The notes: generated by a model from the letters alone, not told the origin. Counted from the first letter of the stretch, positions 21,868 to 56,194 are shown. The stretch is 64,000 nucleotides of DNA from Patescibacteria group bacterium (GCA_041651295.1 JBAZJN010000003.1:14016-78015); one strand, 5' to 3'. A program made the numbers and translations.

Positions 21868-21922
21868 ACAATCAATTCCGCTTTATCATAACCGAAAATT
21901 GTGCTAAAATCCAGAGAGAAAT

Positions 21923-29751: not shown

Positions 29752-29924
29752 ATTTCCTCTCTGATCTTTTGCTCAGGGAGGATTATACCGCAAGTGTTTT
29801 ACAAGTCCAGATGTGCATAAAAATGCTTTACTTTAAGCGTGGTTATGCTATTATTAAGTAGTTATCGTACATCAAAACTTATTGCCTAACCCTCAAAGAT
29901 TTTCTTTGAGATATGGCGCAAAAT

Positions 29925-29966
29925 CTATCCCTAGTAAATAGCTCGTCGTCAGAGCACTAGGGATAG
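29925..29966. repeat. 42-bp site with 11-bp terminal inverted repeats (candidate recombinase site or hairpin)
   Basis: ctatccctagt, then 20 nt, then actagggatag. Confidence 0.6.
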
Positions 29967-30052
29967 TTGTATCTCGAAAGGGATACAGGTGATCGCAAGA
30001 TCATCGCTGGCGGCGGGCTTTTTGTATCTTGCCGCCCAGATAAAGCGGAATA

Positions 30053-30628: not shown

Positions 30629-30743
30629 TCTAAACGATAATACTCCAGCTTAATTTGAGCTCATTTACCGCTTCAAAACTCAGTAGATTAGTGATATGAT
30701 CAAGAAAGAAGCAAATTTGGTATTTGTTGAGAAATGAGTCTTC

Positions 30744-32423
30744 ATGGCAAAATTAAGTGATACTCCAAAATTTGATCGACCCAGAGAAAAATTTCTGGAA
30801 AAGGGAGCTGACGCATTGACCGACAGCGAGCTTTTGGCGATTTTACTCGGCAGCGGAATAAAAGGAACCAATGTAAAAGTTTTATCGCAAAAAATTCTGA
30901 AAAAGTTCGGTGATAATTTTCTCAACGCTTCAGTTGATGACTTGACTCAAATTTCGGGAATCGGACAGGCTAAAGCTTTACAGATCTCATCCGCTTTCGT
31001 TTTGACGAGAAGAATTTTCGACAAACAAAATTCATTGGACAATTTGGTTTTGTCGGCTCAAGATGCGGTTGCCCTCGTTTCCGACTTGAAAGATAAGAAG
31101 CAAGAACATCTGGTTTGCCTGTATTTGAACGCGCGCAATGCCTTATTGAAAAAAGAGACCATTTCCATAGGGACTCTGGATAAAAGCATTATTCACCCGC
31201 GAGAAATTTTCGCCCCGGGATTGGAATTACATGCGGCGGGTGTGATTTTGATCCATAATCATCCTTCCGGAGATTCTTCGCCTAGCGAACAAGACAAACA
31301 AGTTGCTAAGCGGATTATTGAGGCGGGTCAGTTAATGGGCATTAACGTCGTTGATTTCTTGATTATCGCAAAAAACGAAGTTCACAGCATACTCGGCGAG
31401 GTCAAAAACACGAAGTTGTCCGGCACGGAATATGTTGCCGAAGGTGCTCAGGCATCGTTGTTTGATCTGCTTGTTGACGCAAATCAAGTTTATTTTCGTC
31501 AGGATATTTCGCTAAAGAATCCGCCCGAAGTCAAAAAGAAAAAAGATGATTTGAAATTTATCGATTTGTTTGCCGGAATCGGCGGTTTTCATATAGCGTT
31601 TCATAATTCGGGAGCCGAGTGTGCTTTTGTCTCCGAGTGGGATGCACCGGCCCAAAAGACATATCATCACAATCTTTACAAGCTTTCTCCCGAGATGTTT
31701 GATTCTGGGAATTTCGTCGGTGATATAACGAAAGTCGATCCGAAAAGTATCCCCGACTTCGACATTTTGACGGCCGGCTTTCCTTGCCAACCATTCTCCC
31801 AGGCGGGGTTTAAAAAAGGTTTCAGCGAGACGCGGGGAACATTGTTTTTTGACATCGTCAAAATAATGAAAGAAAAAAAACCTCAAGCCTTTTTTCTTGA
31901 GAATGTGAGAGGTCTGCTCAGCCACGACGGCGGTAAAACCTTCAAGACAATCAAAAGGATTCTTACCGAAGAGCTGGGGTATTCATTCTTCCCTCAGATT
32001 GTAAAAGCTTCCGATTTCGGTCTGCCCCAACATCGTCCGCGTCTTTTCATGGTCGGCTTCAAAGACAAATCCATAGATTTCAAATTTCCCGAACCCGTAA
32101 AAGAATTGAAATATACCATGTCGGATATATTTAACGGAAAATGCGATAAAGAAGTCGGCTTTACTCTTCGAGTCGGAGGGCGTGGAAGCAGAATAACCGA
32201 TCGCAGAAATTGGGACGCATACCGTGTCGATGGAAAAATCGTTCAGCTTGGATCGAGAGAGGGGCTGAGGATGCAAGGATTCCCCGACTGGTTTGAATTT
32301 CCCCCCGCAATGTCCGAGGTGCAAGCCATGAAACAGCTTGGAAATTCGGTTGCCGTTCCCGCAATTCAAGCCGTTGCCGAAGAAATTGTTAAAACTTTAC
32401 GGAAACATAAAAATGGAAAGTGA
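30744..32423 (+). CDS. Fusion of RadC-like JAB/MPN domain protein and DNA (cytosine-5) methyltransferase
   Basis: A single 559-aa ORF. Residues 1-225 look like full-length RadC (DSELLAILLGSG, HhH, HNHPSGDSSPSEQD). Residues about 265-559 carry Dcm motifs: FAGIGGF (I), GFPCQPFS (IV), ENVRGL (VI), QHRPR (VIII) and GNSVAVP (X). Confidence 0.88.
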   Translation: MAKLSDTPKFDRPREKFLEKGADALTDSELLAILLGSGIKGTNVKVLSQKILKKFGDNFLNASVDDLTQISGIGQAKALQISSAFVLTRRIFDKQNSLDNLVLSAQDAVALVSDLKDKKQEHLVCLYLNARNALLKKETISIGTLDKSIIHPREIFAPGLELHAAGVILIHNHPSGDSSPSEQDKQVAKRIIEAGQLMGINVVDFLIIAKNEVHSILGEVKNTKLSGTEYVAEGAQASLFDLLVDANQVYFRQDISLKNPPEVKKKKDDLKFIDLFAGIGGFHIAFHNSGAECAFVSEWDAPAQKTYHHNLYKLSPEMFDSGNFVGDITKVDPKSIPDFDILTAGFPCQPFSQAGFKKGFSETRGTLFFDIVKIMKEKKPQAFFLENVRGLLSHDGGKTFKTIKRILTEELGYSFFPQIVKASDFGLPQHRPRLFMVGFKDKSIDFKFPEPVKELKYTMSDIFNGKCDKEVGFTLRVGGRGSRITDRRNWDAYRVDGKIVQLGSREGLRMQGFPDWFEFPPAMSEVQAMKQLGNSVAVPAIQAVAEEIVKTLRKHKNGK

Positions 32424-33507
32424 TATGGAAACAGGAAACAATAAGGGAGAGTGGTCGGAATTTTATGCTTTCCTTAAAATATTAGAGGAAAGAAAGCTTT
32501 TTGCGGCCGATAAAAATCTCGAAGTAATCGACGGAAAATATTTTGTATTTCACAAGATTATCAGGGAAGAAAAAGATGAAACGACTAAAATATACGATAT
32601 TTCGCAATCGTCTGCACAGCTTCTGATAACCGACGACGAAGGCAGATTGTTGAAGGAGTTTGACACGGCTTCATTGAAAGAAAAAACTTTGAAAATATTT
32701 GAGAGAATCAAGCACGAGAAAAGCCCCTCTTTCAATATTCCCGAAGCTCGGGAGCTGATGAATGAATTGCTTTGTACGAAAGTCAAAGCCAGCAATGCGA
32801 AAAAGGCCGATTTGGTGGCGATCATCTACGACAGGATTTCAAAAACGATGCCGATGCTCGGCTTCTCCATAAAATCAATGATTGGAGGAGCATCCACTTT
32901 ATTGAACTCGGGGCACACCACAAATTTTATTTATGAAGTCCATGGTTTTAAGGGAGAGATCGGGAAAGTTAATACGATTCAAACAAGGGCGCAAGTCCGT
33001 GATCGTATTCACGAGATATCAACACACGGCGGGTCTTTTGAATATGTGGGTGTATCCAATGAGCAATTCGAATCGAATATGAAAATGATCGATACGGCAT
33101 TGCCAGAATTCATCGCTCAAATGCTGTTGGACTTTTTCTCAAATGTGCACAGAACGGTTGCCGATTTGACTGGTGAGCTTTCCAAAAACGAGAAAATGAA
33201 ACTAAAATTTGGAGTAACCAATTACGAGTTTAAAATAAAAAACTTTTTGGATGCCGTCGCCCTCGGTATGGTACCGAGCAAGTCTTGGGATGGTTTCTCT
33301 AAGGCACAAGGCGGGTATATCGTGGTGAAGGAAAATGGAGACGTCGTTTGTTATCACTTGTATAATCGCGACGAGTTTCGTTCCTACTTGTATGAAAATA
33401 CGAAGTTCGACGCTCCGAGCACCACCCGACACGGTTATGGCGAATTGTACGAAGAAAATGGTAAGCTACTTTTCAAACTGAATCTTCAGATCAGGTTTTT
33501 GAAATAA
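32413..33507 (+). CDS. Type II restriction endonuclease partner, HpaII-family-like
   Basis: The start overlaps or abuts the methyltransferase stop (TGA 32421-23). The N-terminus NKGEWSEFYAFLKILE resembles what I recall of HpaII-family enzymes. It is flanked by an m5C methyltransferase and vsr. The family call is from memory plus context. Confidence 0.5.
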   Translation: MESDMETGNNKGEWSEFYAFLKILEERKLFAADKNLEVIDGKYFVFHKIIREEKDETTKIYDISQSSAQLLITDDEGRLLKEFDTASLKEKTLKIFERIKHEKSPSFNIPEARELMNELLCTKVKASNAKKADLVAIIYDRISKTMPMLGFSIKSMIGGASTLLNSGHTTNFIYEVHGFKGEIGKVNTIQTRAQVRDRIHEISTHGGSFEYVGVSNEQFESNMKMIDTALPEFIAQMLLDFFSNVHRTVADLTGELSKNEKMKLKFGVTNYEFKIKNFLDAVALGMVPSKSWDGFSKAQGGYIVVKENGDVVCYHLYNRDEFRSYLYENTKFDAPSTTRHGYGELYEENGKLLFKLNLQIRFLK

Positions 33508-33514
33508 GACGATT

Positions 33515-33919
33515 ATGGCCGATATATTTTCCAAAGAGAAACGAAGCGGCATAATGTCTAAAGTCCGCAATAAGAATTCCAAAATAGAGGTTGGGTTTCG
33601 GAAAAAACTCTGGAAAGCGGGATTTCGTTATCGAAAGAACTCTCCAAAATATTTCGGCAATCCCGATCTTGTATTGAAGAAATATAAAACCGTAATATTC
33701 ATAGATTCTTGTTTTTGGCATGGATGCAAAGATCACGGTTCAATGCCTAAAACCAACAAAAAATTCTGGAAAGAAAAAATCAAGCACAATATTGAGCGAG
33801 ACCGAGAAGTGGATGCCCATTATGCAAAAATAGGGTGGAATAATATCAGAATATGGGAACACGATCTAAAAAACAATTTTGAAAATATTATTGGTAAAAT
33901 GGTTAATGAAAATCTATAA
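33515..33919 (+). CDS. vsr: Very short patch repair endonuclease
   Basis: RSGIMSKVRNKNSKIEVGFRKKLWKAGFRYR...PDLVLKKYKTVIFIDSCFWHGC is canonical Vsr. Confidence 0.9.
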   Translation: MADIFSKEKRSGIMSKVRNKNSKIEVGFRKKLWKAGFRYRKNSPKYFGNPDLVLKKYKTVIFIDSCFWHGCKDHGSMPKTNKKFWKEKIKHNIERDREVDAHYAKIGWNNIRIWEHDLKNNFENIIGKMVNENL

Positions 33920-33967
33920 AGTGGCATATAATTTTTATGAATTATCGCAGAAATAAATATGTGAAAT

Positions 33968-34531
33968 ATGACCACACAAGAGAATATTAGTATTGCCATC
34001 GAAAAAATAATAAGCGATTTTAAGGAGTATCCTGATAAGTATTTAACTGAGGATGATGTTAGATGTTTTTTGTTCAATGAGTTAATGAAAATTGATGAAT
34101 TCAGCTTACCAATACATACTTCAGACAATTCTAAATCCATAACCGTTCATTCCGAGGTTCGCTGGTATGGTAATTCAGGAAAATTGAAATGGCGATCAGA
34201 CATTGTGATTGTTGATGTAAGTACCTTAAGGGTCAAAAATGATATTTTCAAACTTCCAAGTAAGGGCTTTGGATTTAATAGACCAAAAGTGATTATAGAA
34301 ATTAAACTTCGTAGGATAAATGGAGAATCGGATAATGGTTTTATCAATCAAATTAGAAAAGATTTGGACAAAGTAAGCAAAATTAAACAAGAAATTAGCG
34401 GTAATTTTATATCGTGTTTGTTGGTTTTGGATAAAAAACGAGACCTTAAAGATGGTATTGATCACCTAGGTCAGAGTGGGATAGAAATATTTTATCAATT
34501 CGCATCCTCGTCGCTACAATTACAAAGTTAA
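33968..34531 (+). CDS. Stand-alone PD-(D/E)xK-like protein
   Basis: 187 aa, with WRSDIVIVD ... VIIEIKLRR. This is the same motif layout as the C-terminus of the following STAND protein. Confidence 0.5.
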   Translation: MTTQENISIAIEKIISDFKEYPDKYLTEDDVRCFLFNELMKIDEFSLPIHTSDNSKSITVHSEVRWYGNSGKLKWRSDIVIVDVSTLRVKNDIFKLPSKGFGFNRPKVIIEIKLRRINGESDNGFINQIRKDLDKVSKIKQEISGNFISCLLVLDKKRDLKDGIDHLGQSGIEIFYQFASSSLQLQS

Positions 34532-34620
34532 ATATACAAAATGAGCTTGCATATTTAAAAACAAGTAAGGATATAGTCATTCCGCTAATGGTAAATTAGT
34601 TAATAACTGATAATTATAAA

Positions 34621-37600
34621 ATGTCTAAAGAAATAATAAAATCCAACAAAACATATATTATTCCAAGAATACAAATCTTTCAATCTTTTAGAGAAGCGAC
34701 ACCAGGAATAGAAAGGTCAAGTTTTCTCGTCAACAAAGGTGATGATAAGGAAAAACTGAGAGATTATTTTACTTATCCCAGAATGTTTGTTGTTGCTGAG
34801 GCAGGTTTTGGGAAAACTAGATTACTTAAAGAACTTACTGCAGAATCAAGCTTGAGGGGTAAAAAATCAATTTGTGTGGATTTAAAAAAAATGTCAATTT
34901 CAGAAACTCTTGTAGATTTTATTGACAAACAAATTATCGAACAAAAAATTAAACCATTCAGCATCGTAAATTCCGAAGAATTGCTTGTTTGTTTTGATGC
35001 TCTTGACGAGGTCAAACAAGAAGAATTTTCAGCAACAGTTGAAAAGCTTAAAACATTGGCGGCGAATTACCCTAAACTAAATATTGTAGTCGCCTGCAGG
35101 TGGTATTTTTTTCAAAAATATCAGGAGCTATTTATTGATTCTGACTTTAGATACGCTCATATTTCGCAATTTTCACTCAACGATGTCAGGCGATATTTGA
35201 AAACTAACTTAATCTCTGGGGCTGAAGTTGAAAAGCTTATTAACTCTTTAAATTTTAAAAATAGAGAGCTTATTATTCAAACTCCACGTTATTTGGAGTT
35301 GTTGGTAGATTACATCAATAATATTAAATCTGGCAACGTAGACTCTGTGACTAGGACAGATTTGTTCGAATATTTCATTTACAAAAAGCTGGAGCTAGAA
35401 GACAAAAACTTAACAACCCAAAAAAAAGATTTAATAAAACGTGTGTTGGAAAAACTCGCACTATTGATGGAAATATATCAGACCAATATCCTGACCAAAG
35501 ATGAATTAATGACTTTCTTTGATGATTTGAAATCTGATTTGAAAGCAAGTTTTTTGCAGCAAGTTCCGATTGAAATTTTTTACGACAAAACAGCTTTGAA
35601 AGACAATGGAAACACCATTGAATTTGAAAATACTGAGTTTCAGGAATATTTAGCATCTAAAGAAATAAGTCGACTTGGACATCCACTCCAGACTGTTTTT
35701 GATTTGATAGTTGATCAAGAACTTAGAGAGATTTATGCGAGTTGGTCCAATGCCCTGACTTTTTTAATTGAACTCGACATTACATTGTTGAAACCAATAT
35801 TGGATTTTACCAATCGTAAAAATGACGGTTACCTGCAAGGAGAGGAATACCATCGACTCATCACAAGGGTTAATATTAACCAGTTATCTGTGGAAGACCA
35901 GAAGTCAATATTTGAACAAGTCTTTGAATATTACCAATCAGTTCTTCACTGGATTGATTGGGACATTGCCAGCAATCTAGCGCGGTACTTTGACATTTCT
36001 CAGCATTATATGTTGGAAGCATATGTAAACAAGATTCATTTTTCCTCCGATACTGAACGCTTCGTTCAACTTGGTAATCTTGTCCTTATTGTGGGTTTTC
36101 TAATTGAACGAGATATTTTTAATCAAGCGGAGAAAACATTTTGGAAGAAAAATATTTTAAAATACGCAAAAGATAAGAACAAAAATGGAGTATTACAACG
36201 GCATGCTCTGTTCGCACTTGAAAAATTAATGGATGATAGCATAATTGATAAAATTGATTATGTATGGAAACACGACGAGGAACTTGTCCGTAGTCGATTT
36301 TTGGAATTGTGCAGTGTGGTAAATCCCAATCACGTGACGTCCGTAAAATATTTTGTAGAAGGAGTGAAACAGCAAGTCATCTCTGCAAGATATGGATTAT
36401 TTTTGGTTTCCGAGCCAGCAGCAATTAAAAAACTATTGCAATATTTCATTAATGATGAAGTTTTTTTATACCAATTTATTGATCATGAAAGTATTTATGA
36501 AAAAAGAGATAGACAAATTATTGAACATATAGTTATAGTCTGGGATGCTGACATTAAAAATCAGTTGGAACAAATAATCTGTAATGTATTCGCATCACAG
36601 TTTTGCTATCATGCTGAAAAATCTGACTTTATTAAAAGTTTGGCTTTAGTACTTAAGGAGAAGAATAAAGACTATATATTTGAGTTATTAAAACAAATTA
36701 AAACCTCAAATGAACTCAAAAATAATCTTTTTAGCTTTTTGTATCTATTTGCAAGCATTCTGCAGAAGAACCAGATTAAAAGTTTTTTAGAAATGATTAC
36801 GGAATTTGACAATGGGACTAGGTTTGCTTTGTGGACACTTCAACAGATCAAGTTTTCAAAACGTAGCGACGCCAAAGATATTTATGAGGAAGGCAGGAAA
36901 TATCTAGCCGAAGAATATAAAATATCTGAAAAACATTGGAAAAAAGAGGCAAAGAGACCACCTGAAGAAATTATTTTACATCAAGAATTTCAATACAAAC
37001 TTGAGCCAATTCCTGGCCAATATATGACTGATGTTTTTGAGTTCTACATTCGCAATGAGAATAAAATTGAAAAATTTATCACTGATGCAGAGAAAAAGAA
37101 ACTAATTGACCTCGTTATCAATATTATCTTCGAAAAATTTGATCCATCAGGTCAGGACATTAAAATCACCAAACAGGAAGACGGGCACAAAAGATTCACG
37201 GTTCAGTCATGGATACCAATATTTGGAGATTGCTTATTGGTCGCGCAAAGACTTAAACTAGATGTTTCAAAATATAGAGGCAAAATTATCAGTTATTTAC
37301 CATTTGCTTATCATGATCACAGAAAGGCCATTTTTGAGATGGTAAAGCATATCAAGCCAGAAGAAATAAAAACTCTTCTGAATATTTATAATAATAAGAG
37401 TTCAGATCTTTGGGGAAATTTACCAGACGGGTTGATAGAAGCGACAATAAAATATCAAATATCAGAAGCTGTTCCCATACTCAAAGAATTTATTAACCAA
37501 AATGATTTTTTTATTCATGATAGAATCGCCGCACTTGAGGCGAGCGAAACGTTAAATCCCGATCAACATTTTTTAGAATCTATATTTGAAGAATATTCAA

Positions 37601-38607
37601 AAACTCAACCAAGTATTGCCGATAAGGCAAACGAACTTTTAATTGAAAAATACCGAAATACTACAGCCATCAATCGAAGATTCGCACAAATAAAAGATAG
37701 GGCATTTAAATTTAAAAAGCCTGTTGGAGTGCATTCTGTAAGTGATCAAGAAAGCGAATTGCACGATAAAAAATTCGCTATTCCATTAATTAATCTTAAG
37801 GATCTGAAGTTCCAAAATAATTTTCTAAACTTGTTGGGTTTTTCATTTGCATTACTAAAGAAGGACGAGTCTTACTATCCATATGTCCACTATCTGTGGC
37901 AAATAGTATCTTCTTATTTTGAGAACCTCAAAGAAGGTAAATCATATGATCCTTTGAAAACATTGGGTGAATATTCTCAAAAGCATTCCACAGAGGGTAC
38001 GAATTGGTTTACCAGTGAGGTAAATAAACTCAGGTTATCGTACATGAATTTTTTAGGTAAACCTAATAATATCGCGGAGTGTATTTTGAAATACAACAAT
38101 TTGAAAACAATGCAATACCTTGATATCAATACCCCGAGAGATCTATTTGAGAAACTCAAGAATATTATCTCTCACGAAGTCAGAGACTGGGTGACAGGTG
38201 AAGGTGTCAAGTTGATGAACTCTATCGAAACCGACGCGCAGAAGCATATTAAAACTCAGTTAGAGATCAGTTTTTTAAGGAAGGGGTTTAGGCCAAACGA
38301 GATTGCAATTATTAGAGAGCCTCAAATGCTAAATGACAAACGCACAGACTTTCTTTTATCTTACGGCTTTATAGGTCCCATAGTGCTTGAAATTAAAATG
38401 AGTGATAGCTCAGATTTAACAGGCAGGCTAAAAAATAAGAAGTCATACAAGAACCTCCAGCATTATTTAATCAATTACAATGCGTATTTTGGAATATTTT
38501 TAGTAATTGATAGCAAACAAGTGAACAGCTGGCCTACTCAGTTTGAAAAAGTAAAAGAAGCTTATCAGGAAATTGAAAATGTAGAAGTTATCGAAATTTC
38601 AAAATAA
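34621..38607 (+). CDS. NACHT/STAND-type P-loop NTPase with long helical-repeat region and C-terminal PD-(D/E)xK-like module
   Basis: 1328 aa. Walker A is VVAEAGFGKTRLL (K65) and Walker B is LLVCFDALDEV. About 900 aa of helical sequence follow. The C-terminus is ...TQLE...KRTDFLLSYGFIGPIVLEIKMS (E, D, ExK). Confidence 0.8.
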   Translation: MSKEIIKSNKTYIIPRIQIFQSFREATPGIERSSFLVNKGDDKEKLRDYFTYPRMFVVAEAGFGKTRLLKELTAESSLRGKKSICVDLKKMSISETLVDFIDKQIIEQKIKPFSIVNSEELLVCFDALDEVKQEEFSATVEKLKTLAANYPKLNIVVACRWYFFQKYQELFIDSDFRYAHISQFSLNDVRRYLKTNLISGAEVEKLINSLNFKNRELIIQTPRYLELLVDYINNIKSGNVDSVTRTDLFEYFIYKKLELEDKNLTTQKKDLIKRVLEKLALLMEIYQTNILTKDELMTFFDDLKSDLKASFLQQVPIEIFYDKTALKDNGNTIEFENTEFQEYLASKEISRLGHPLQTVFDLIVDQELREIYASWSNALTFLIELDITLLKPILDFTNRKNDGYLQGEEYHRLITRVNINQLSVEDQKSIFEQVFEYYQSVLHWIDWDIASNLARYFDISQHYMLEAYVNKIHFSSDTERFVQLGNLVLIVGFLIERDIFNQAEKTFWKKNILKYAKDKNKNGVLQRHALFALEKLMDDSIIDKIDYVWKHDEELVRSRFLELCSVVNPNHVTSVKYFVEGVKQQVISARYGLFLVSEPAAIKKLLQYFINDEVFLYQFIDHESIYEKRDRQIIEHIVIVWDADIKNQLEQIICNVFASQFCYHAEKSDFIKSLALVLKEKNKDYIFELLKQIKTSNELKNNLFSFLYLFASILQKNQIKSFLEMITEFDNGTRFALWTLQQIKFSKRSDAKDIYEEGRKYLAEEYKISEKHWKKEAKRPPEEIILHQEFQYKLEPIPGQYMTDVFEFYIRNENKIEKFITDAEKKKLIDLVINIIFEKFDPSGQDIKITKQEDGHKRFTVQSWIPIFGDCLLVAQRLKLDVSKYRGKIISYLPFAYHDHRKAIFEMVKHIKPEEIKTLLNIYNNKSSDLWGNLPDGLIEATIKYQISEAVPILKEFINQNDFFIHDRIAALEASETLNPDQHFLESIFEEYSKTQPSIADKANELLIEKYRNTTAINRRFAQIKDRAFKFKKPVGVHSVSDQESELHDKKFAIPLINLKDLKFQNNFLNLLGFSFALLKKDESYYPYVHYLWQIVSSYFENLKEGKSYDPLKTLGEYSQKHSTEGTNWFTSEVNKLRLSYMNFLGKPNNIAECILKYNNLKTMQYLDINTPRDLFEKLKNIISHEVRDWVTGEGVKLMNSIETDAQKHIKTQLEISFLRKGFRPNEIAIIREPQMLNDKRTDFLLSYGFIGPIVLEIKMSDSSDLTGRLKNKKSYKNLQHYLINYNAYFGIFLVIDSKQVNSWPTQFEKVKEAYQEIENVEVIEISK

Positions 38608-38621
38608 AAAGAACTAAAACT

Positions 38622-39212
38622 ATGAATGTTGATCAGGAGAAATTGAAATTTGAGGGGAAAATTACAGATCTATTAAATCTATCTGAGCTGTATTTGAATT
38701 TTGCTTTAAATTACAGAAAATTATTTGATGAATTTTATGTGGGTGCAAATCCCGCGTATCAACAATTAATTTTAAACCATCCAATTACCAGTAATATTAT
38801 TTTAAACGCAAATTCATACTTATTTTTATCAATTAACTCCTATCACTCGCTTCTCAACAAAAAATCCATTACTGAAATATCGTTTTCTAAATATTTCAAT
38901 AAATTTGGTAAGTTACGGGGAGAAATAGTTGAGACAAGAGCTGAATATCAAAATTCCTTGCTTGACCAAGTCAGAGATAAAATTATCGCTCATAAAGATA
39001 TTAAAAATATTGGAGACCCTGGAGTTTTAGCTGTAATTCTCATAGACAAGAAGTTTTTTGATAGTGCCAACCAAATAAATAACAAACTCAATAAAATTGT
39101 TCAAAATAATTTTACCGATCCTCACGTGAATAATCCACTCTTGGATCTTTGTGAAGAAGGTTTAAAATCTACTCTGAGCCATTACCGAGAAATATTAAGC
39201 CGGATTAAATGA
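38622..39212 (+). CDS. HEPN-motif protein (AbiU2-like)
   Basis: A 196-aa helical protein carrying VRDKIIAHKD (R118-x5-H124, which fits Rx4-6H). It lies 14 nt downstream of the STAND gene. Confidence 0.55.
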   Translation: MNVDQEKLKFEGKITDLLNLSELYLNFALNYRKLFDEFYVGANPAYQQLILNHPITSNIILNANSYLFLSINSYHSLLNKKSITEISFSKYFNKFGKLRGEIVETRAEYQNSLLDQVRDKIIAHKDIKNIGDPGVLAVILIDKKFFDSANQINNKLNKIVQNNFTDPHVNNPLLDLCEEGLKSTLSHYREILSRIK

Positions 39213-40003
39213 AGTTGAATTATTTATTCAATACCAATGCTGTTCTCATAAACGATGAGAAACCCGAAGAAATATTTAATTCCCATATTTTTCGTTTTTT
39301 GGATGAAAATATTATCTGGAAGATTAAGAATCAGGGAAGCGATATCGTGCTGGAAGTTGTGTTGCGTAATTTGAATTATGCTAAAAAGATTGAAAAACTT
39401 CTTAAGTTTGCGTCGGTGGTTGTTTATCGCAACAGCCATGTTAATGGTTTTCGATATGTAACCTCGTCAAACGCTGAAATCGGGCAAATAAAATCAGAAG
39501 CTGGAATCGAAACTAGATTTCTACTCAGCGGGAATGAGGATTCCTTCAGCCCAAAGATGTGGTCAATGTTATCGTTTTATCTTGAGGCCAGAAATTCTAC
39601 AAGTAATTATTATAAATTTATCTGTCTGTATAAAATAATTGAGATACAAAATTTAAAATCAGAGAATAGAAATGGCAAAAAAATATTAGTTGAAAATAAT
39701 ACCGCAACTCAGTCATATATCGAAACAGAAATAAAGAAAATTATCACTCGACATGAATTAAACAAATTACAAAGTGCGGTTAAGACAAGCTCAATTAAAC
39801 CGAAAACCATCGGTAAATATTTTGAACATATTTTTAGAGATGCTTTTGCACACACAGGATTTCTAACAAAAAATAACTACATTAATGGATTCCCAACATT
39901 AAATCCGACCAATTTTAATGATGCCAGGAGATACCAAGAGGCTGTGGTTTGGTTTGACCAAATAGCCAAGACTGCTCTGCGAGCTAATGAACCAAGTCCA
40001 TGA
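39209..40003 (+). CDS. Second HEPN-motif protein
   Basis: 264 aa, with FRDAFAHTG (R210-x4-H215) and an upstream FYLEARN...YKIIEI helix pair. There is an ATGA overlap with the previous gene. Confidence 0.5.
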   Translation: MKLNYLFNTNAVLINDEKPEEIFNSHIFRFLDENIIWKIKNQGSDIVLEVVLRNLNYAKKIEKLLKFASVVVYRNSHVNGFRYVTSSNAEIGQIKSEAGIETRFLLSGNEDSFSPKMWSMLSFYLEARNSTSNYYKFICLYKIIEIQNLKSENRNGKKILVENNTATQSYIETEIKKIITRHELNKLQSAVKTSSIKPKTIGKYFEHIFRDAFAHTGFLTKNNYINGFPTLNPTNFNDARRYQEAVVWFDQIAKTALRANEPSP

Positions 40004-40272
40004 AAATTAAAAACGAAATTATTGAAAAGCGAAAAGAAATTAAAGAAGAATTTGAGGAATTGTTGGCCGAGCATTCCAGTCCTTTTACTTTTGACCATAT
40101 TCTGGACATTATCAAATACGAAGACGATACTGATGATATGATGAAAATAGTCAGAATCTTTGATCGTGGCAATCCAATGGAATTGGATAATGTTTTAGAA
40201 CTAGCGACTGATGCTTGGAACTATTTCCCTCACAAAATACTCAAAGATAAATCTCCGGCGGAGATGGTATAA
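40000..40272 (+). CDS. Small acidic hypothetical protein
   Basis: 90 aa. It has an ATGA overlap with the previous gene and ends DAWNYFPHKILKDKSPAEMV. Confidence 0.5.
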   Translation: MKIKNEIIEKRKEIKEEFEELLAEHSSPFTFDHILDIIKYEDDTDDMMKIVRIFDRGNPMELDNVLELATDAWNYFPHKILKDKSPAEMV

Positions 40273-40285
40273 TAGCCGCATCCTT

Positions 40286-40456
40286 ATGAAATATAAAGTT
40301 TGTGATAAATGTGGTGAGGTTGTGGCGAGGACGGGAATAATTTCCTCGTCTCGAGTTTCGGATGATAAAAGTTGCTATGCCAGATGCAATAATAAAAACT
40401 GTCAGCAATATTATTCAAAAATCAAATTTGAAAAACTGAAAGAAGAGGAGTTTTAA
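40286..40456 (+). CDS. Small zinc-ribbon protein (56 aa)
   Basis: MKYKVCDKCGEV...CYARCNNKNCQQY has CxxC plus CxxC-like pairs. Its stop overlaps the start of the next gene. The ORF-track start at 40211 seems too early. Confidence 0.45.
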   Translation: MKYKVCDKCGEVVARTGIISSSRVSDDKSCYARCNNKNCQQYYSKIKFEKLKEEEF

Positions 40457-41202
40457 TGGATGGGGTAGTCAGTAACAATAAATGCAGGGTCTTTATCCAA
40501 GATATTGAGAATACTGCTTGGCAGATTTTTTCAATGACGCAACTCAAGAAAGATGGAAGTATTTATTTAGGATCTCCTGAATTTACAAAATTTGAGTGGC
40601 TAACTTTTGAGGTCAAAGATGGGAAGTTAGACACATTCAAAGTTGAGCAATCACGCAACGGACACTTAAGTTTTCATGGGTCAGGACAAGTTCATGTTCG
40701 ATCTGGAGATGATGAATATAAGCTCGCCATCGACGGTCAGCACATACTCAAATTAGAAAAAAACGATATCAGTCTCAGGCATCTGTTCACGCTATTTCCG
40801 AAAAAACCAGAGCATATTCCAACATCTGCTGCACTTAATCGAAAAAGTGATCAATTGATAAACTCAAAAAAACCTCTAAAACCATTTGCGGTAATTGCTT
40901 TTGCACTGCCAAGAGTCGGATATAATTTGAGCTTTCAAATGTCGTTTGATATTGATGACCTCGAGCCAGAGGATATTCCAGGTATTATGGGCACGCATAT
41001 ATTTCCTCTAATTCATCATGATATTTTTCTAATTTTTTATAGAACTAAAAACATGAATGAATGGCCTAAAAGAAATATGCTGCAATACCTTGATGGAATT
41101 GCTGTGCCAGTCTTTATTGGTCAACATGAGAGAAAGATCAGGGTTGAATTTAGAATGCCCAAATATGCCATATTGGACGGGGAACTGAGAATAGAACTGT
41201 AA
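40456..41202 (+). CDS. Hypothetical protein (248 aa)
   Basis: Coupled to the previous ORF (TAATG overlap). I recognise no motif. Confidence 0.55.
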   Translation: MDGVVSNNKCRVFIQDIENTAWQIFSMTQLKKDGSIYLGSPEFTKFEWLTFEVKDGKLDTFKVEQSRNGHLSFHGSGQVHVRSGDDEYKLAIDGQHILKLEKNDISLRHLFTLFPKKPEHIPTSAALNRKSDQLINSKKPLKPFAVIAFALPRVGYNLSFQMSFDIDDLEPEDIPGIMGTHIFPLIHHDIFLIFYRTKNMNEWPKRNMLQYLDGIAVPVFIGQHERKIRVEFRMPKYAILDGELRIEL

Positions 41203-41241
41203 TTTGTTGGGTCACAATTTTAGCTATGGTATTATTAGTTT

Positions 41242-41889
41242 ATGAAACTATTTCATTACGCACATCCAGACCGATATCAAGGTATTGTCATAGGAAAAGA
41301 AGGTTTAAAACCTGAGACAAAACTTGGTATCACCCCCAACCTTCAAAAAAAGAAGTTTGTTTTTGCTTTAACTGACCCACAGCCTGAAAAATGGTTGCAA
41401 AATACTGAATTTTCAAAAGCTGTTTGGCATCGACTAATTATGAATGCAGGTACTTTGCTTCTGGATTTTGATTTCGACGAACAGAATCAAGAGGCTTATG
41501 TTGCTGATTGGGGACACCGTGAAGGATATCTTTTGGGCAAGAGGGATAAAAACGCTCCGGAACGATTTACTCATGATTCCAGAGAAGAAGCAGAAGAGGC
41601 TTACGCGTCAACAATGGTGGAGCTAAAAAGATATTTAGACGATCCCGGACTTGCACAATCATATTCATTGCCAGAAATTTTAATACCCGGGAAAATTCCC
41701 GCAGACCTAATCCATGTGTCAGAAACTCAACCAGAAATTGAACGACTCATCGAATTTGCACGAGAAAATCCAAACAGCCTAGAGATCCACAGGAGCAATC
41801 TCGCTAATATTCCGGAATTGCATAATCAACTGATGGAAATTGATAGCCATCTGGCTGAACTTGAAGGTGGAGTTTCTAGGAGAGGATAA
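41242..41889 (+). CDS. Hypothetical protein (215 aa)
   Basis: This is the last gene of the co-directional array. It has an acidic C-terminal half. I recognise no motif. Confidence 0.55.
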   Translation: MKLFHYAHPDRYQGIVIGKEGLKPETKLGITPNLQKKKFVFALTDPQPEKWLQNTEFSKAVWHRLIMNAGTLLLDFDFDEQNQEAYVADWGHREGYLLGKRDKNAPERFTHDSREEAEEAYASTMVELKRYLDDPGLAQSYSLPEILIPGKIPADLIHVSETQPEIERLIEFARENPNSLEIHRSNLANIPELHNQLMEIDSHLAELEGGVSRRG

Positions 41890-41905
41890 CAAAATCTCTC
41901 CCTAT

Positions 41906-43396
41906 TCAGATAATTCTCGAATACATCCCCCTACAGTTAATCATTTCGACAGTTTCTTGCTTGGACTCATTTTCGGCTATTCCTTGAATTAGAGTTGAAT
42001 ACGCATCAGCAACGTCCTCATGTTTTAACATGCCAAATTTAAGCATTTGGTTTTGCAATATCTCTGTACCCGGATTGCAAAATAAGATTTTACCTAATTG
42101 CATCCTATTGGTTGTCATCCCTAATCTGGTTTTTTTATCAAGGCCATGGATCTTAACGCCAACTGCCCGAAAGTTTTTTGATTGCAACTCCCGAGTTAAC
42201 CAACCTTGAAGCGCGACTTCCTCAACATAAATTGTAGTTGAATATTGGCCACCAAATCCTTTGATTATCAAATCTAGAGTAGCGACAACTTCTGACATTC
42301 CCATCTGTTTGTTTATGATATTCGGTAAAATGTAGTATTTTTTGTTCTTTCCAGAACCTAAAATCATGCAGGAAACAATTCCAGTTGGATCATTTTTATC
42401 GCCATCTCCGAGTGATGGATCAACACCAATCGCATAAGAAACAGTCTCGTTCTGGGTTGGTTGTGGCACTCCTGAAAATTGATGAATCCATTCAGGTCTG
42501 ACAACAGGTTCCTTATCATCAATTGGTTTTAATAAGTACTCTCTTTGAAAAGCAAATTCATTACCGATCCGCAATCGTAATTTTTCAATTGCCTCCATAT
42601 TCGAATATTTTCCAGGCCAAGCAATGTTGTCGTCATCATCCAACAGTGGAAATTCACGGTAAACACCGCTTCGCTTGCCGCTGGTTATCTCGGTTTTGAG
42701 TCGCAGAAGTAAACTATCCTCATGTAACGGACTTCCAACAATGATACATTTTGTGTTGGAATCACCGAGAGGCAAGATTTCAGTCACAAACCATCGATAT
42801 GTCTTATCTCTCCCCTCCTGGGTTTCAACCGACTCATTATTTTCAACATCATCAAGCACAATCAAATCTGGCCGATGTTCACCGTGAGTAAACCCACGAA
42901 TTTTTTGCCCGACCGAGGCAACCATGATTCTTGCTCGGTATTTGGGGATATAAAGGGAGGTAGCGTTCCATTCATCTTCCTCAAATGGGCCCAGATCATC
43001 TTTCATTAATGGACTGCCAAGAATCATTTTCAGATTTTTAAAATGCTGTCTAACCTGCTCCTGGGTCTGAGAAAAAATGACAACATATTTTTTCTGCATT
43101 TTCCCGACAATGCTCCAAATAGAATTACTTAGAGTAAAAATAGTACTTTTAGCCGACCCGCGAAAAGCGGTGATCACCGCCAAATCTGTATTTTCATCTT
43201 CGGTGAGTCTAAAAAATTCATGATGAAACGGCGCAATTTTATATTTTGCAAAATGACTCAAATAAATTGTAAAGAAGGCCAAATGGTTCCGTCTCGCAAG
43301 TTCAGATCTTGTCTCCTGATTTTTGATGGCAGAATTAAAGGCACTCTCATTTGATTTTCTTTTTAGCATTTTGACCTCTTTTCTCACCTGAGTCAC
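41906..43396 (-). CDS. Phage terminase large subunit
   Basis: 496 aa, with APFHHEFF, Walker A-like AFRGSAKST, Walker B LIVLDDVEN and a C-terminal RNase H-like nuclease region (GVDPS...). Confidence 0.75.
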   Translation of the reverse strand: MTQVRKEVKMLKRKSNESAFNSAIKNQETRSELARRNHLAFFTIYLSHFAKYKIAPFHHEFFRLTEDENTDLAVITAFRGSAKSTIFTLSNSIWSIVGKMQKKYVVIFSQTQEQVRQHFKNLKMILGSPLMKDDLGPFEEDEWNATSLYIPKYRARIMVASVGQKIRGFTHGEHRPDLIVLDDVENNESVETQEGRDKTYRWFVTEILPLGDSNTKCIIVGSPLHEDSLLLRLKTEITSGKRSGVYREFPLLDDDDNIAWPGKYSNMEAIEKLRLRIGNEFAFQREYLLKPIDDKEPVVRPEWIHQFSGVPQPTQNETVSYAIGVDPSLGDGDKNDPTGIVSCMILGSGKNKKYYILPNIINKQMGMSEVVATLDLIIKGFGGQYSTTIYVEEVALQGWLTRELQSKNFRAVGVKIHGLDKKTRLGMTTNRMQLGKILFCNPGTEILQNQMLKFGMLKHEDVADAYSTLIQGIAENESKQETVEMINCRGMYSRII

Positions 43397-43796
43397 TATT
43401 CGGCATTAAAAGCTTTTCTGCTTTATTAATGTCCGCCTCTTGCTCTGGTGAGAGTTTACCGTCAGAAATCTTTGTCGTAACCTCAAGTTTATTCTTGTAG
43501 ATGTTGTGGCGATGGTTCAGCCAGTACATAACCGCCGTAAGATTATTATCCTTCATAGCGCTAATCAGCTGACTTTCCGCAATGTCATTAATCAGTGCGC
43601 AGCCTTCTTCCATCGCTTTATTACATTCTTCGGAGAATTTAACATCTTGCCGTTTCCAGCGATAATATGTGGTTCGCCCGATCTCCAATCGTTCACATAC
43701 GATTTGGACAATTGGCGTTTTTTTCAACTGTTCAGTAAACATTTCTTTTTGCTTTTTCTGCTTTGTATCATCTTTTTTCATCCGACCCTCCATCAA
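43347..43796 (-). CDS. Terminase small subunit-like HTH protein
   Basis: 149 aa, with GRTTYYRWKRQD (HTH). It lies directly upstream of, and overlaps, the terminase large subunit gene. Confidence 0.55.
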   Translation of the reverse strand: MMEGRMKKDDTKQKKQKEMFTEQLKKTPIVQIVCERLEIGRTTYYRWKRQDVKFSEECNKAMEEGCALINDIAESQLISAMKDNNLTAVMYWLNHRHNIYKNKLEVTTKISDGKLSPEQEADINKAEKLLMPNSDSGEKRGQNAKKKIK

Positions 43797-44550
43797 TTAT
43801 TTTTACTGCCTTGAGACCGGTCGCTTGTGTAACTCGGTCAAGGATAACCTGACAATATTCGGGATCCAATTCCGATCCGTAGCAAATTCTTTTAACTTGT
43901 TCTGCTGCCAAAATTGTCGTCCCGGATCCAAGAAACCCATCAAAAACTATATCGCCGACACTTGAACTGTTAAGAATCAGATTCCGTAAAAGTGGAATTG
44001 GTTTCATGGTAGGGTGTAGTTTTGATTTACTCGGTCGCGGATAGAATAACACTGATTTGTCTTGAGATTTTTTAAATTCATGAACCCCAAACCATCCATA
44101 TAGAATCAATTCATGCTGAGGTAGATAATTCAGTCTGCCGATTACCGCATGACTTTTAACCCAAATCAAAAGTTGTGAATATTTAAAACCTGCTTGTAAA
44201 AATCCCTCCCGAAGAGCGTAAATCATTTTGTCACAGTTGAAGAGATATGCGGAATTTTTGCGTTCGAGATGTGACTTAATAACATTGAGCCACTCTTTCG
44301 TAAATTTGGCGTACTCTTCATCAGTTTGCTCTTGATCATTTAAAATATCCTTGTGTTTTGTCGTAATATTTCCAAAATTTCTCTTACTTTGTGTTACGGA
44401 TGCTCCATATGGGACATCACAGAGTAAAACTTTTATCTTGTTATTTTCAACCAACTTATCGATCATTTCTTGATCTCGAGCATCACAGCAGGCGACCCGA
44501 TGCGGTCCAATCTGAAAAATGTCTCCATATTTGATTTCAGTTTTTTCCAT
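43768..44550 (-). CDS. DNA methyltransferase (N6-adenine/N4-cytosine, beta class)
   Basis: 260 aa. Motif IV is LLCDVPYG, and it precedes motif I, FDGFLGSGTT. Confidence 0.8.
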   Translation of the reverse strand: MEKTEIKYGDIFQIGPHRVACCDARDQEMIDKLVENNKIKVLLCDVPYGASVTQSKRNFGNITTKHKDILNDQEQTDEEYAKFTKEWLNVIKSHLERKNSAYLFNCDKMIYALREGFLQAGFKYSQLLIWVKSHAVIGRLNYLPQHELILYGWFGVHEFKKSQDKSVLFYPRPSKSKLHPTMKPIPLLRNLILNSSSVGDIVFDGFLGSGTTILAAEQVKRICYGSELDPEYCQVILDRVTQATGLKAVKIIDGGSDEKR

Positions 44551-45838: not shown

Positions 45839-45860
45839 TTTGCCTCCATAATTAATTTTT

Positions 45861-56042: not shown

Positions 56043-56065
56043 ATAAATAAGCAAAACGAACCGAA

Positions 56066-56140: not shown

Positions 56141-56194
56141 GCTTCATTTCATTCAGCGTAAACCAGTTTACATCGAGCCAATTATTTGGCGAGG

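What the first reader, a model, noticed from the sequence alone, without database searches (positions are those of the whole stretch)
33968..41889. Tightly coupled 7-8 gene operon: STAND NTPase-nuclease, two HEPN-motif proteins and four orphan ORFs - candidate undescribed defence system
All genes from 34621 to 41889 are co-directional with tiny gaps or overlaps. The spacings are 14 nt, an ATGA overlap at 39209, an ATGA overlap at 40000, 13 nt, an overlap at 40456, and 39 nt. This indicates one translationally coupled unit.

The unit sits in a defence-island context, next to an m5C restriction-modification module with Vsr, PD-(D/E)xK genes, serine recombinases and phage remnants. Its parts are a 1328-aa NACHT-like P-loop NTPase, two proteins carrying Rx4-6H HEPN signatures, a 90-aa acidic protein, a 56-aa zinc ribbon, and two proteins of 248 and 215 aa in which I recognise no motif.

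Known STAND defence systems (Avs/AVAST, bNACHT) are typically one or two genes. I do not recognise a STAND gene followed by a fixed train of six accessory genes as a described system.
Basis: partly seen in the sequence, partly recalled or inferred. Interest (0 to 1): 0.85.

Follow-up and report, generated by a model that had tools for sequence, protein, structure and literature searches.

The report
Mosaic defence island, not one system
The eight tightly packed genes are real, but they are separately exchangeable cargo genes (probable anti-phage genes) in the variable bay of a phage-derived mobile element of a candidate-phyla-radiation bacterium, not a single new multi-gene defence system.

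Summary

- **B (1328 aa, NACHT-type NTPase with a C-terminal PD-(D/E)xK motif):** at least 389 full-length relatives. In 80 fetched loci none has a homologue of A, C, D, E, F, G or H.
- **G (248 aa):** found in 20 other loci across at least six phyla. It never occurs with B, C or E. It occurs with D and H in only one closely related island.
- **D (MauJ family):** sits behind a different upstream gene in each of 7 other contexts.
- **A and C:** no homologue in any locus fetched here.
- **Breakpoints:** nucleotide homology between related islands starts and stops at gene boundaries, with discordant identity levels.

The cluster fills the cargo bay of a roughly 20 kb element. The element runs serine recombinase, LOOT RNA, cargo, terminase large and small subunits, ParB-methylase, second serine recombinase.

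Tight spacing is the norm in this compact genome: 52% of same-strand gaps are 40 nt or less.

B is best read as a stand-alone STAND nuclease of a known kind. G (confident all-β model with no PDB match), H and the D cassette are uncharacterised candidate genes. Interest is moderate to low.

The parts
28387..29751 (-). Large serine recombinase (SR454). It marks the left end of the roughly 20 kb mobile element.
   Evidence: Pfam Resolvase, Recombinase and Zn_ribbon_recom. Homologues of 49-85% identity flank related elements. Host-type genes lie to its left.
29883..30005 (+). LOOT RNA (Rfam RF03000), a conserved backbone feature of the element. A terminator-like hairpin follows at 30004-30016.
   Evidence: Rfam 90.6 bits against a gathering score of 46.4. 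The same RNA is found in 8 related element loci. The intergenic block is 96% identical to L102, while the neighbouring recombinase gene is 76% identical. Terminator-like site.
30744..33919 (+). Type II m5C restriction-modification module: RadC-C5 methylase fusion (30744-32423), HpaII-type endonuclease (32413-33507) and Vsr (33515-33919).
   Evidence: Precomputed Pfam families for the contig's gene calls: RadC/DNA_methylase, RE_HpaII, Vsr.
33968..34531 (+). A187, an orphan protein with a D...E-x-K-like motif visible by eye. No family assignment.
   Evidence: No hit in Pfam, PADLOC, NCBIfam or PDB. No homologue in any fetched locus. Not similar to the C-terminus of B.
34621..38607 (+). B1328, a stand-alone STAND/NACHT-type NTPase. 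It has an N-terminal P-loop, central HEAT-like repeats and a C-terminal PD-(D/E)xK motif.
   Evidence: - Weak NACHT hit, with PF05729 in many relatives.
- Invariant Walker A G62/G64/K65, Walker B D126/D129/E130, and E1233/D1243/E1257/K1259.
- alphaRep/HEAT-like match at about 509-613.
- C-terminus matches the C-terminus of NCBIfam HyoA at 1.2e-10.
- 80 homologue loci have none of the other genes.
38622..39212 (+). C196, a possible HEPN (AbiU2-like) protein with R118-x5-H124. It is the local upstream partner of D.
   Evidence: HEPN_AbiU2 at E = 0.0054 and 16.7 bits, below the cut-off of 26.8. Motif position. No homologue in any fetched locus.
39209..40003 (+). D264, a MauJ-family protein. It has an N-terminal β domain and a C-terminal helical domain with conserved R210-x4-H215. 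It behaves as a discrete cassette.
   Evidence: - Pfam MauJ at 5.9e-14.
- Family of 15 clusters. Alignment.
- AF2 model pLDDT 73.8.
- Homology to all related loci starts at 39206-39209.
- Upstream partners vary.
40000..40272 (+). E90, an acidic 90-aa protein that follows D in some islands.
   Evidence: pI 4.71. An 89% identical copy follows D in L100/L101 only.
40286..40456 (+). F56, a Cys-rich 56-aa putative zinc ribbon. It recurs at different positions in related islands.
   Evidence: 5 Cys. Homologues lie after G in L006, after an unrelated 251-aa gene in L100, after D in L102 and after D in L104.
40456..41202 (+). G248, a member of a conserved all-β protein family of unknown function that occurs as a solitary gene across phyla.
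   Evidence: - 31 clusters.
- 17 genome loci in Patescibacteria, Bacteroidota, Chloroflexota, Acidobacteriota, Proteobacteria and Planctomycetota.
- Invariant R11, S72, H74, H109, D132, H188 and K198.
- AF2 pLDDT 80.8, pTM 0.84.
- No PDB fold match. One unnamed viral match.
41242..41889 (+). H215, a member of an uncharacterised family of about 200-230 aa.
   Evidence: 139 clusters at 50% identity. No Pfam, PDB or PADLOC family. The H profile is found only in L102/L103 among all fetched loci.
41906..45838 (-). Element backbone: terminase large subunit (41906-43396), small-terminase-like HTH protein (43347-43796), DNA methyltransferase (43768-44550) and ParB-DNA methyltransferase (44537-45838).
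   Evidence: PHROGs: phrog_38 terminase large subunit at 5.9e-65, small-terminase families, and phrog_498 methyltransferase. The backbone is conserved in L030, L043, L045, L049, L054, L061, L062, L102, L105 and L107.
46619..48175 (+). Second large serine recombinase (SR518), at the right end of the element. A tyrosyl-tRNA synthetase gene lies beyond it.
   Evidence: Pfam Resolvase/Recombinase for the called gene, and tRNA-synt_1b for the neighbour. 68% identical homologue in L102.

Best explanation
Window 33968-41889 is the distal part of the variable cargo bay of a roughly 20 kb phage-derived integrative element of a Patescibacteria (candidate phyla radiation) bacterium, spanning about 28.4-48.2 kb. 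The element's order is serine recombinase, LOOT RNA, cargo, terminase large and small subunits, ParB-methylase, second serine recombinase.

The cargo is a defence island assembled from independently exchanged modules:
1. HpaII-type restriction-modification plus Vsr.
2. A187, function unknown.
3. B, a single-gene STAND/NACHT NTPase.
4. A D-centred cassette (MauJ-like, Rx4H), here flanked by C (possibly HEPN) and E.
5. F, a small zinc ribbon.
6. G, a solitary all-β protein.
7. H, a solitary protein.

The tiny gaps and ATGA overlaps reflect genome compaction and probably read-through transcription. They do not indicate a shared mechanism.

**Mechanism for B (inferred by analogy to Avs and bNACHT STAND proteins).** The central HEAT-like repeat region senses a phage cue. 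NTP-dependent oligomerisation through the NACHT module (K65) then activates the C-terminal PD-(D/E)xK nuclease (D1243/E1257/K1259), which cleaves DNA and aborts infection.

**Mechanism for C-D-E (weaker inference).** A HEPN-type RNase toxin or regulator module.

**What is shown and what is inferred.**
- Shown: the anatomy, the family memberships at the stated scores, the independent assortment and the element backbone.
- Inferred: defence function and all mechanisms.
For: **Independent assortment**
- 80 B-homologue loci carry no homologue of A, C, D, E, F, G or H, by tblastn and by profile or jackhmmer searches.
- The gene after B varies in 38 loci with downstream flank, and is on the opposite strand in 10 of them.
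- An Arcobacter plasmid homologue of B also stands alone.
- G occurs in 17 genome loci and one viral contig without any partner, apart from F in L006.
- D has a different upstream gene in each context: HEPN PF05168, Hypoth_Ymh, HNH, an uncharacterised 209-aa protein, a 1203-aa protein or a 90-aa protein. Downstream, E or F follows D in two contexts each and other genes elsewhere.
- H is absent from all loci except L102/L103.

**Mosaicism**
- blastn blocks begin and end at gene boundaries.
- Identities are discordant. Window against L102: D 77%, F 89%, G 96%, H 93%, terminase 44%. Window against L100: D 87%, E 89%, F 65%, terminase 92%.

**Element backbone**
- Backbone genes.
- LOOT RNA in 9 element loci.
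- B occupies different slots of the element in other loci.

**Composition and spacing**
- GC is 0.32-0.35 in the cargo, against 0.38-0.41 on the flanks.
- Tight spacing is the background state of the window.

**B motifs:**
Against: - The six junctions from B to H are all 40 nt or less. That is somewhat tighter than background: about 0.52^6, roughly 0.02, if junctions were independent. Co-transcription and some local functional coupling are therefore not excluded.
- In L102/L103 the string D-F-G-H recurs, and in L100/L101 D-E recurs. Some sub-blocks do travel together among close relatives.
- Very divergent homologues of small proteins (C, E, F) could escape tblastn or jackhmmer.
- No expression or phenotype data exist. 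Defence function is inferred only from context and domain type.
- The fetched B loci come from JGI metagenomes and many contigs are short.
Confidence: 0.8

Rival explanations
1. The seven or eight genes are one translationally coupled multi-gene defence system, in which the STAND NTPase-nuclease works with a fixed set of six accessory proteins.
For: Co-directional genes with gaps of 40 nt or less and overlaps from B to H. No named system claims any part. Defence-island context.
Against: - No co-occurrence of B with any of the other genes in 80 loci.
- G is solitary in 18 other loci, with F beside it in one of them.
- D has variable partners.
- A and C have no homologue in any fetched locus.
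- L102 keeps D-F-G-H but replaces B with a helicase-nuclease plus RmuC and lacks E.
- Tight spacing is generic in this genome.
Confidence: 0.04
2. Sub-blocks are genuine small systems: C-D-E (HEPN-like, MauJ and acidic protein) as a toxin/antitoxin-like or two-nuclease module, and F-G-H as a three-gene module. B stays independent.
For: - ATGA overlaps at C/D and D/E.
- D-E recurs at 83% nucleotide identity in L100/L101.
- D is preceded by a HEPN-clan or HNH nuclease gene in 5 of 8 contexts, with a 4-nt overlap in window, L105, L107 and L109.
- F-G-H is one 92% identical block shared with L102.
- F lies next to G in L006.
Against: - E is absent from 5 of 7 other D contexts. C has no homologue next to any other D.
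- G is found without F or H in 17 loci.
- The H family (139 clusters) is not found next to G outside L102/L103.
- F appears next to unrelated genes.
- The recurrences are limited to closely related islands, so they may be shared ancestry rather than function.
Confidence: 0.12
3. Some or all of the orphan genes (E, F, G, H) are not host-defence genes. They would be functions of the phage-derived element itself, for example helper-phage interference, anti-defence or maintenance.
For: - They lie directly next to the terminase genes of a capsid-less, satellite-like element.
- E is small and acidic, as many anti-defence proteins are (own knowledge).
- G has one structural match among viral proteins and one viral-contig homologue.
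- None matches a PADLOC model.
Against: - G and H are absent from most copies of the backbone.
- Scans of viral contigs for D and H found nothing.
- G's neighbours elsewhere are helicases, HNH, PLD and toxin-antitoxin genes, which is typical of defence or variable islands.
Confidence: 0.1

Closest known systems
Single-gene STAND anti-phage NTPases: Avs/AVAST, bNACHT, and the NCBIfam families HyoA (NF058534) and EruA (NF058535)
   Same: - P-loop STAND/NACHT module with invariant Walker A and B residues.
- Long repeat region that could act as a sensor.
- Nuclease-type effector in the same polypeptide.
- Encoded as a solitary gene in defence islands and mobile elements.
- The C-terminal roughly 80 residues align locally to the C-terminus of HyoA, and the NACHT region aligns to EruA.
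   Different: - Scores are far below the family cut-offs: 39.7 against 1200 bits for HyoA, 28.3 against 1000 bits for EruA.
- No PADLOC Avs or bNACHT model matches B. One of 32 relatives hits Avs2 weakly.
- Domain order is NTPase first and nuclease last, the reverse of the nuclease-bearing Avs proteins (own knowledge).
- No experimental evidence exists for this family.
Defence islands carried in the variable cargo regions of phage satellites, prophages and integrative elements (own knowledge: P4-like and P2 hotspots, PICI-type satellites)
   Same: - A conserved backbone of recombinases, terminase genes and methylases.
- A hyper-variable bay that holds restriction-modification, STAND, HEPN-like and helicase-nuclease genes.
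- The cargo differs between otherwise related copies.
   Different: - The host is a Patescibacteria/CPR lineage.
- The backbone carries two large serine recombinases and a LOOT RNA.
- No capsid genes and no helper phage are known.
- There are several cargo slots: on either side of the LOOT RNA, and beyond the methylase.
HEPN-domain abortive-infection and toxin modules (AbiU2, Hypoth_Ymh, HEPN PF05168; HEPN-MNT type pairs)
   Same: - C and D each carry an Rx4-6H motif in a helical region.
- D is usually preceded by a HEPN-clan or other nuclease gene.
- They are located in defence islands.
   Different: - C's HEPN_AbiU2 hit is below threshold.
- D matches only MauJ (PF17419). It shows no profile-profile similarity to three HEPN-type partners and no fold match to PDB HEPN structures.
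- No MNT or antitoxin partner was recognised.

Membership tests
   - None of 80 B loci has any other component.
- None of 18 G loci outside the L102 island has B, C, D, E or H.
- D contexts differ.
STAND / NACHT NTPases | Match to the NACHT profile (PF05729) and conserved Walker A and Walker B residues | tested here: inconclusive
   B scores 20.5 bits, E = 4.7e-4, below the gathering score of 26.7. Many 40-57% identical relatives carry PF05729. G62/G64/K65 and D126/D129/E130 are invariant in 32 sequences. Membership is probable.
NCBIfam HyoA / EruA (NACHT domain-containing antiphage proteins) | Whole-protein score at or above the curated cut-off | tested here: not met
   HyoA 39.7 bits against 1200. 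EruA 28.3 bits against 1000. Only local matches, to the C-terminal domain and to the NACHT region.
Avs / AVAST | Match to Avs models, with an N-terminal effector, central STAND module and C-terminal TPR sensor | tested here: not met
   No Avs hit for B. One of 32 relatives hits Avs2 at 1e-4. In B the P-loop lies at residues 55-195 and the nuclease motif at 1226-1307, which is the opposite order.
PD-(D/E)xK nucleases (B C-terminus) | Conserved D...(D/E)xK catalytic motif within the restriction-endonuclease fold | tested here: inconclusive
   E1233, D1243, E1257 and K1259 are invariant. There is a local match to the HyoA C-terminus. No Pfam PD-(D/E)xK family hit was found, and the fold was not modelled.
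HEPN superfamily (C196) | Rx4-6H motif in a four-helix HEPN domain recognised by a HEPN-clan profile | tested here: inconclusive
   Motif R118-DKIIA-H124 is present. HEPN_AbiU2 gives 16.7 bits against a cut-off of 26.8. No relatives were available to test conservation.
HEPN superfamily (D264) | Rx4-6H motif plus profile or fold similarity to HEPN domains | tested here: inconclusive
   R210 and H215 are at least 90% conserved, and the C-terminal half is helical. No HEPN Pfam hit. hhalign probability is below 1% against three HEPN-type proteins. No PDB fold match.
MauJ (PF17419) | Score above the Pfam gathering threshold | tested here: met
   53.4 bits against 28, E = 5.9e-14, residues 121-257. 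14 of the 15 family clusters carry PF17419.
LOOT RNA (RF03000) | Covariance-model score above the Rfam gathering score | tested here: met
   90.6 bits against 46.4 over the full-length model. Eight further full-length hits in related elements.

The most novel reading that the evidence does not exclude
Although the cluster is not one system, it could hold several undescribed stand-alone immune or counter-immune genes.
- **G family:** a solitary, cross-phylum protein with a confident all-β model, no PDB fold match and an invariant His/Asp/Ser/Lys set. This suggests a new enzyme fold.
- **H family:** 139 clusters with no annotation.
- **D (MauJ-like):** a cassette that docks precisely at its start codon behind unrelated nuclease or NTPase genes.

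All of these are delivered by a previously unplaced LOOT-RNA-bearing, terminase-encoding satellite-like element family of Patescibacteria.
Probability: 0.3. Interest if true: 0.6.

Novelty: new member of a known kind. Interest (0 to 1): 0.33.

Why it matters
- **A caution about method.** In compact genomes such as those of Patescibacteria, tiny gaps and ATGA overlaps are not evidence that neighbouring genes form one system. Gene-neighbourhood conservation is the decisive test.
- **A usable hotspot.** The analysis defines a mobile-element family in the candidate phyla radiation: serine recombinases, LOOT RNA, terminase and ParB-methylase. Its cargo bays act as a defence-gene hotspot that can be mined in a lineage where few defence systems are known.
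- **Candidates for testing.** It nominates a large family of solitary NACHT-nuclease proteins and two or three uncharacterised families (G, H and the MauJ-like D).

Tried and rejected
- **Library scans.** PADLOC, Pfam, NCBIfam and PHROGs scans of all eight proteins and of family alignments assigned no named system.
- **PDB sequence searches.** Searches for A, C, H and the B, D, G and H profiles found only HEAT-like repeats in B.
- **Fold searches.**
  - Foldseek of the G and D models against PDB found no significant match.
  - G against BFVD gave one unnamed hit.
- **D as a HEPN protein.** hhalign of the D family against the HEPN-type partners (Ymh, C196, PF05168 protein) showed no similarity.
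- **A and the nuclease domain of B.** They are not similar.
- **Viral-contig scans.** Scans for H and D found nothing.
- **Promoter and terminator scan.** Counts equalled the shuffled expectation, so it was uninformative.
- **Literature searches.**
  - No source was found for the names HyoA and EruA, or for a MauJ-HEPN link.
  - LOOT is not discussed in the held text of Weinberg 2017.
  - Sequences of the Patescibacteria defence proteins LdgA and DdgA (PMC12366544) were not available for comparison.
- **F56 cluster.** Its 90% cluster contains 390-aa cystathionine lyases. Inspection shows no similarity, so this is a clustering artefact.
- **Tool error.** One call used a non-existent RNA model id.

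Full report
**1. Observation**

- A 33968-34531 (187 aa)
- B 34621-38607 (1328 aa)
- C 38622-39212 (196 aa)
- D 39209-40003 (264 aa)
- E 40000-40272 (90 aa)
- F 40286-40456 (56 aa; a longer ORF starts at 40211)
- G 40456-41202 (248 aa)
- H 41242-41889 (215 aa)

The junctions are as stated:

| Junction | Spacing |
|---|---|
| A-B | 89 nt |
| B-C | 14 nt |
| C/D | ATGA overlap |
| D/E | ATGA overlap |
| E-F | 13 nt |
| F/G | 1-nt overlap |
| G-H | 39 nt |

Public gene calls on the source contig agree, except that F is not called. The source is ENA ERZ27247363 k141_2388483, 106 kb.

The packing is not exceptional for this genome. In a greedy gene map of the window, 52% of same-strand gaps are 40 nt or less and 36% are 15 nt or less. 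The convergent terminase gene ends only 16 nt from H. The neighbouring backbone genes overlap each other by 14-50 nt.

**2. Motif claims**

- **B.**
  - It has a sub-threshold NACHT hit of 20.5 bits against a cut-off of 26.7. It also has weak local matches to two NCBIfam "NACHT domain-containing antiphage protein" models: the HyoA C-terminus at 1.2e-10 and the EruA NACHT region at 4.7e-7. Both are orders of magnitude below the family cut-offs.
  - Its family is large, with at least 389 full-length relatives of about 1340 aa. Many of these carry PF05729 and a newer family, PF28130, that is absent from the local Pfam copy.
  - In a 32-sequence alignment the Walker A residues (G62, G64, K65), the Walker B residues (D126, D129, E130) and a C-terminal E1233...D1243...E1257-x-K1259 motif are invariant.
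  - Residues around 509-613 resemble HEAT/alphaRep repeats.
  - The description "STAND NTPase-nuclease" is therefore reasonable.
- **C.** It has only a weak HEPN_AbiU2 hit (E = 0.005) over the region that holds R118-x5-H124.
- **D.**
  - It is a significant member of Pfam MauJ (5.9e-14), with a conserved R210-x4-H215.
  - Its AF2 model (pLDDT 73.8) has an N-terminal β domain and a helical C-terminal half.
  - Neither Foldseek against PDB nor hhalign against three HEPN-type proteins supports a HEPN assignment.
- **E.** It is acidic, pI 4.7.
- **F.** It has five cysteines.
- **A, G, H.** None has a family hit. PADLOC recognises none of the eight proteins.

**3. The decisive test: do the genes co-occur elsewhere?**

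- **G family.** There are 31 clusters. A scan of one genome per species returned 17 loci in Patescibacteria, Bacteroidota, Chloroflexota, Acidobacteriota, Proteobacteria and Planctomycetota. One viral contig was also found. None carries B, C, D, E or H. Only L006 has F next to G. G's neighbours are unrelated to each other: a UvrD helicase, HNH, PLD, an IrrE-type peptidase and toxin-antitoxin genes.
- **B family.** 80 metagenome loci were fetched. None contains a homologue of A, C, D, E, F, G or H, by tblastn at E of 0.01 or less or by profile and jackhmmer searches of six-frame ORFs. In the 38 loci with at least 800 nt downstream, the next gene ranges from 60 to 717 aa, is on the opposite strand in 10, and forms no recurrent family. 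A 27% identical full-length homologue on an Arcobacter plasmid is also solitary.
- **D family.** There are 15 clusters. Seven other contexts were read, and the neighbours of D differ from one to the next:

| Locus | Upstream of D | Downstream of D |
|---|---|---|
| L100 | HEPN PF05168 protein | E |
| L102 | 209-aa protein | F |
| L104 | HNH | F |
| L105, L107 | Hypoth_Ymh (preceded by UvrD) | 351-366-aa gene |
| L109 | 1203-aa protein | opposite-strand peptidase M23 gene (start of a type IV secretion cluster) |
| L110 | 90-aa protein | 192-aa gene |

- **H family.** It is sizeable, with 139 clusters at 50% identity. Its profile is found only in L102/L103 among all fetched loci.
- **A and C.** Neither has a homologue in any fetched locus.

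It is also met for G outside one closely related island.

**4. What the region is**

All D loci, and at least nine of the B loci, share a backbone with the window:
- a large serine recombinase (28387-29751, minus strand);
- a terminase large subunit (41906-43396; phrog_38, 5.9e-65);
- a small-terminase-like HTH protein;
- one or two DNA methyltransferases, one of them fused to ParB;
- in the window and L102, a second serine recombinase (46619-48175).

Host-type genes lie outside these limits. On the left are a methyltransferase, an isochorismatase, a hydrolase and a class II aminoacyl-tRNA synthetase. On the right is TyrS. The flanking host genes differ in L102.

The cargo between the recombinase and the terminase has lower GC, 0.32-0.35 against about 0.40.

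Nucleotide comparison shows the mosaic directly. Homology to every D locus starts at 39206-39209, at or within 3 nt of the D start codon.

| Compared with | Block (window coordinates) | Nucleotide identity |
|---|---|---|
| L102 | D | 78% |
| L102 | F-G-H (40283-41888) | 92% |
| L102 | recombinase | 76% |
| L102 | 250-nt intergenic block | 96% |
| L102 | everything between 30.0 and 39.2 kb | unrelated |
| L100 | D-E | 83% |
| L100 | F | 70% |
| L100 | terminase | 87-89% |

Protein identities are discordant. The terminase is 44% identical to L102 and 92% identical to L100. F is 89% identical to L102 and 65% identical to L100.

In other copies B sits in other slots. It lies to the right of the methylase in L030, L049, L061 and L062, and to the left of the recombinase in L043 and L054. 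It is always alone.

In L061 the bay between the LOOT RNA and the terminase is only about 0.7 kb, against 11.9 kb in the window.

This is the behaviour of a defence or cargo hotspot on a mobile element, not of a single operon-encoded machine.

**5. Mechanism**

- **Shown.**
  - The anatomy described above.
  - B's conserved NTPase and nuclease motifs.
  - D's MauJ membership and conserved Rx4H.
  - G's conserved polar set (R11, S72, H74, H109, D132, H188, K198).
  - G's confident all-β model (pLDDT 80.8, pTM 0.84), with no PDB match (best E = 0.24) and one unnamed viral match.
- **Inferred for B.** It acts like other single-polypeptide STAND immune sensors. Ligand recognition by the repeat region leads to NTP-dependent oligomerisation, which activates the nuclease and aborts infection.
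- **Inferred for D.** The ATGA at D's start supplies a TGA stop for whatever gene lies upstream in the right frame. This explains how unrelated upstream genes (C196, Ymh, the 1203-aa protein) all end in a 4-nt overlap with D without implying co-evolved coupling. D's recurrent position behind nuclease or NTPase genes leaves open that it is a portable toxin, regulator or partner module. I give this low confidence.
- **G and H.** Their functions are unknown. G's invariant His/Asp/Ser/Lys cluster suggests an enzyme (inference).

**6. Comparison with known systems and novelty**

- B is a new family-level member of the known class of solitary STAND/NACHT nuclease immune proteins. It fails the curated cut-offs of HyoA and EruA and matches no Avs or bNACHT model. 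Its domain order is NTPase first and nuclease last.
- The island as a whole is an ordinary phenomenon, a defence hotspot on a phage-derived element, in an under-studied lineage.
- A 2025 functional-selection study reported Patescibacteria-restricted defence proteins (LdgA, DdgA) with no recognisable homology (PMC12366544).

**7. Verdict**

The motif calls are partly supported. The interpretation of one novel 7-8-gene system is not supported.
- Interest is moderate to low (0.33). It rests on the candidate orphan families (G, H and the D cassette) and on placing the LOOT RNA in a CPR mobile-element family, not on a new multi-gene system.

Noticed in passing
window 29883-30005 (+); also L102 1606-1728, L105 12334-12457, L107 12407-12532, L043 9770-9883, L045 9474-9588, L049 4231-4344, L054 7919-8040, L061 1900-2021: - A full-length LOOT RNA (Rfam RF03000, 71-94 bits against a gathering score of 46.4) is a conserved component of this element family.
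- In six of the nine loci it lies within about 250 nt of the start of the left serine recombinase gene, transcribed divergently.
- The window copy is followed by a terminator-like hairpin.
- To my recollection this RNA is known only from metagenomes and has no assigned biology, so the link to a Patescibacteria mobile element may be new.
   Followed up: partly
window 40456-41202 and loci L003-L019, L111: The G248 family is a solitary gene spread over at least six phyla. It has a confident all-β AF2 model of 19 strands that has no PDB fold match, and an invariant R/S/H/H/D/H/K set. It may be a new enzyme fold in variable islands.
   Followed up: partly
window 39206-39209, the C/D junction, and the equivalent position in L100-L109: Nucleotide homology between islands begins at or within 3 nt of the D start codon in every D locus except the weakly similar L110. 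Unrelated upstream genes terminate in D's own ATGA, so D behaves as a precisely bounded cassette.
   Followed up: partly
window 40286-40456; L006 10797-10964; L100 12666-12830; L102 10862-11029; L104 10860-11027: The 56-aa Cys-rich F protein recurs at 52-89% identity at different positions and next to different genes in related islands. It was not called as a gene in the window's own contig or in L104. Its role is unknown.
   Followed up: partly
window 30744-32423: The C5 DNA methylase of the HpaII-type restriction-modification module is fused to an N-terminal RadC/UPF0758 domain (precomputed Pfam families).
   Followed up: no
window 28387-48175: The element carries terminase large and small subunits and ParB-methylase, but no recognisable capsid, portal or tail genes. 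It is flanked by two different large serine recombinases. This looks like a satellite-like or degraded prophage element, with several cargo slots.
   Followed up: partly
window 14333-14718 (+); 55969-56932 (-); 21794-21995: A tmRNA gene, an array of eight tRNA genes within about 1 kb, and a divergent tRNA pair (Rfam).
   Followed up: no
L100 5102-9118; L102 3847-9193; L109 6393-10004: In sister islands the slot occupied here by B holds other large proteins:
- a 1338-aa protein with an N-terminal LexA-type DNA-binding domain;
- a 1384-aa AAA_11/AAA_12 helicase with DUF559/MTES_1575, plus RmuC;
- an unannotated 1203-aa protein.

These are further candidate defence genes.
   Followed up: no
L112 (Arcobacter sp. 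plasmid CP129951.1, 92472-96518): A full-length 27% identical homologue of B is annotated as a hypothetical protein on a 133 kb plasmid of a cultivable bacterium, a few genes from a dGTPase gene. It is a possible experimental entry point for the B family.
   Followed up: no
cluster look-up: The 90% cluster that contains F56 also holds 390-aa cystathionine β-lyase-like proteins with no visible similarity to F56. This looks like a clustering artefact in the protein collection.
   Followed up: yes
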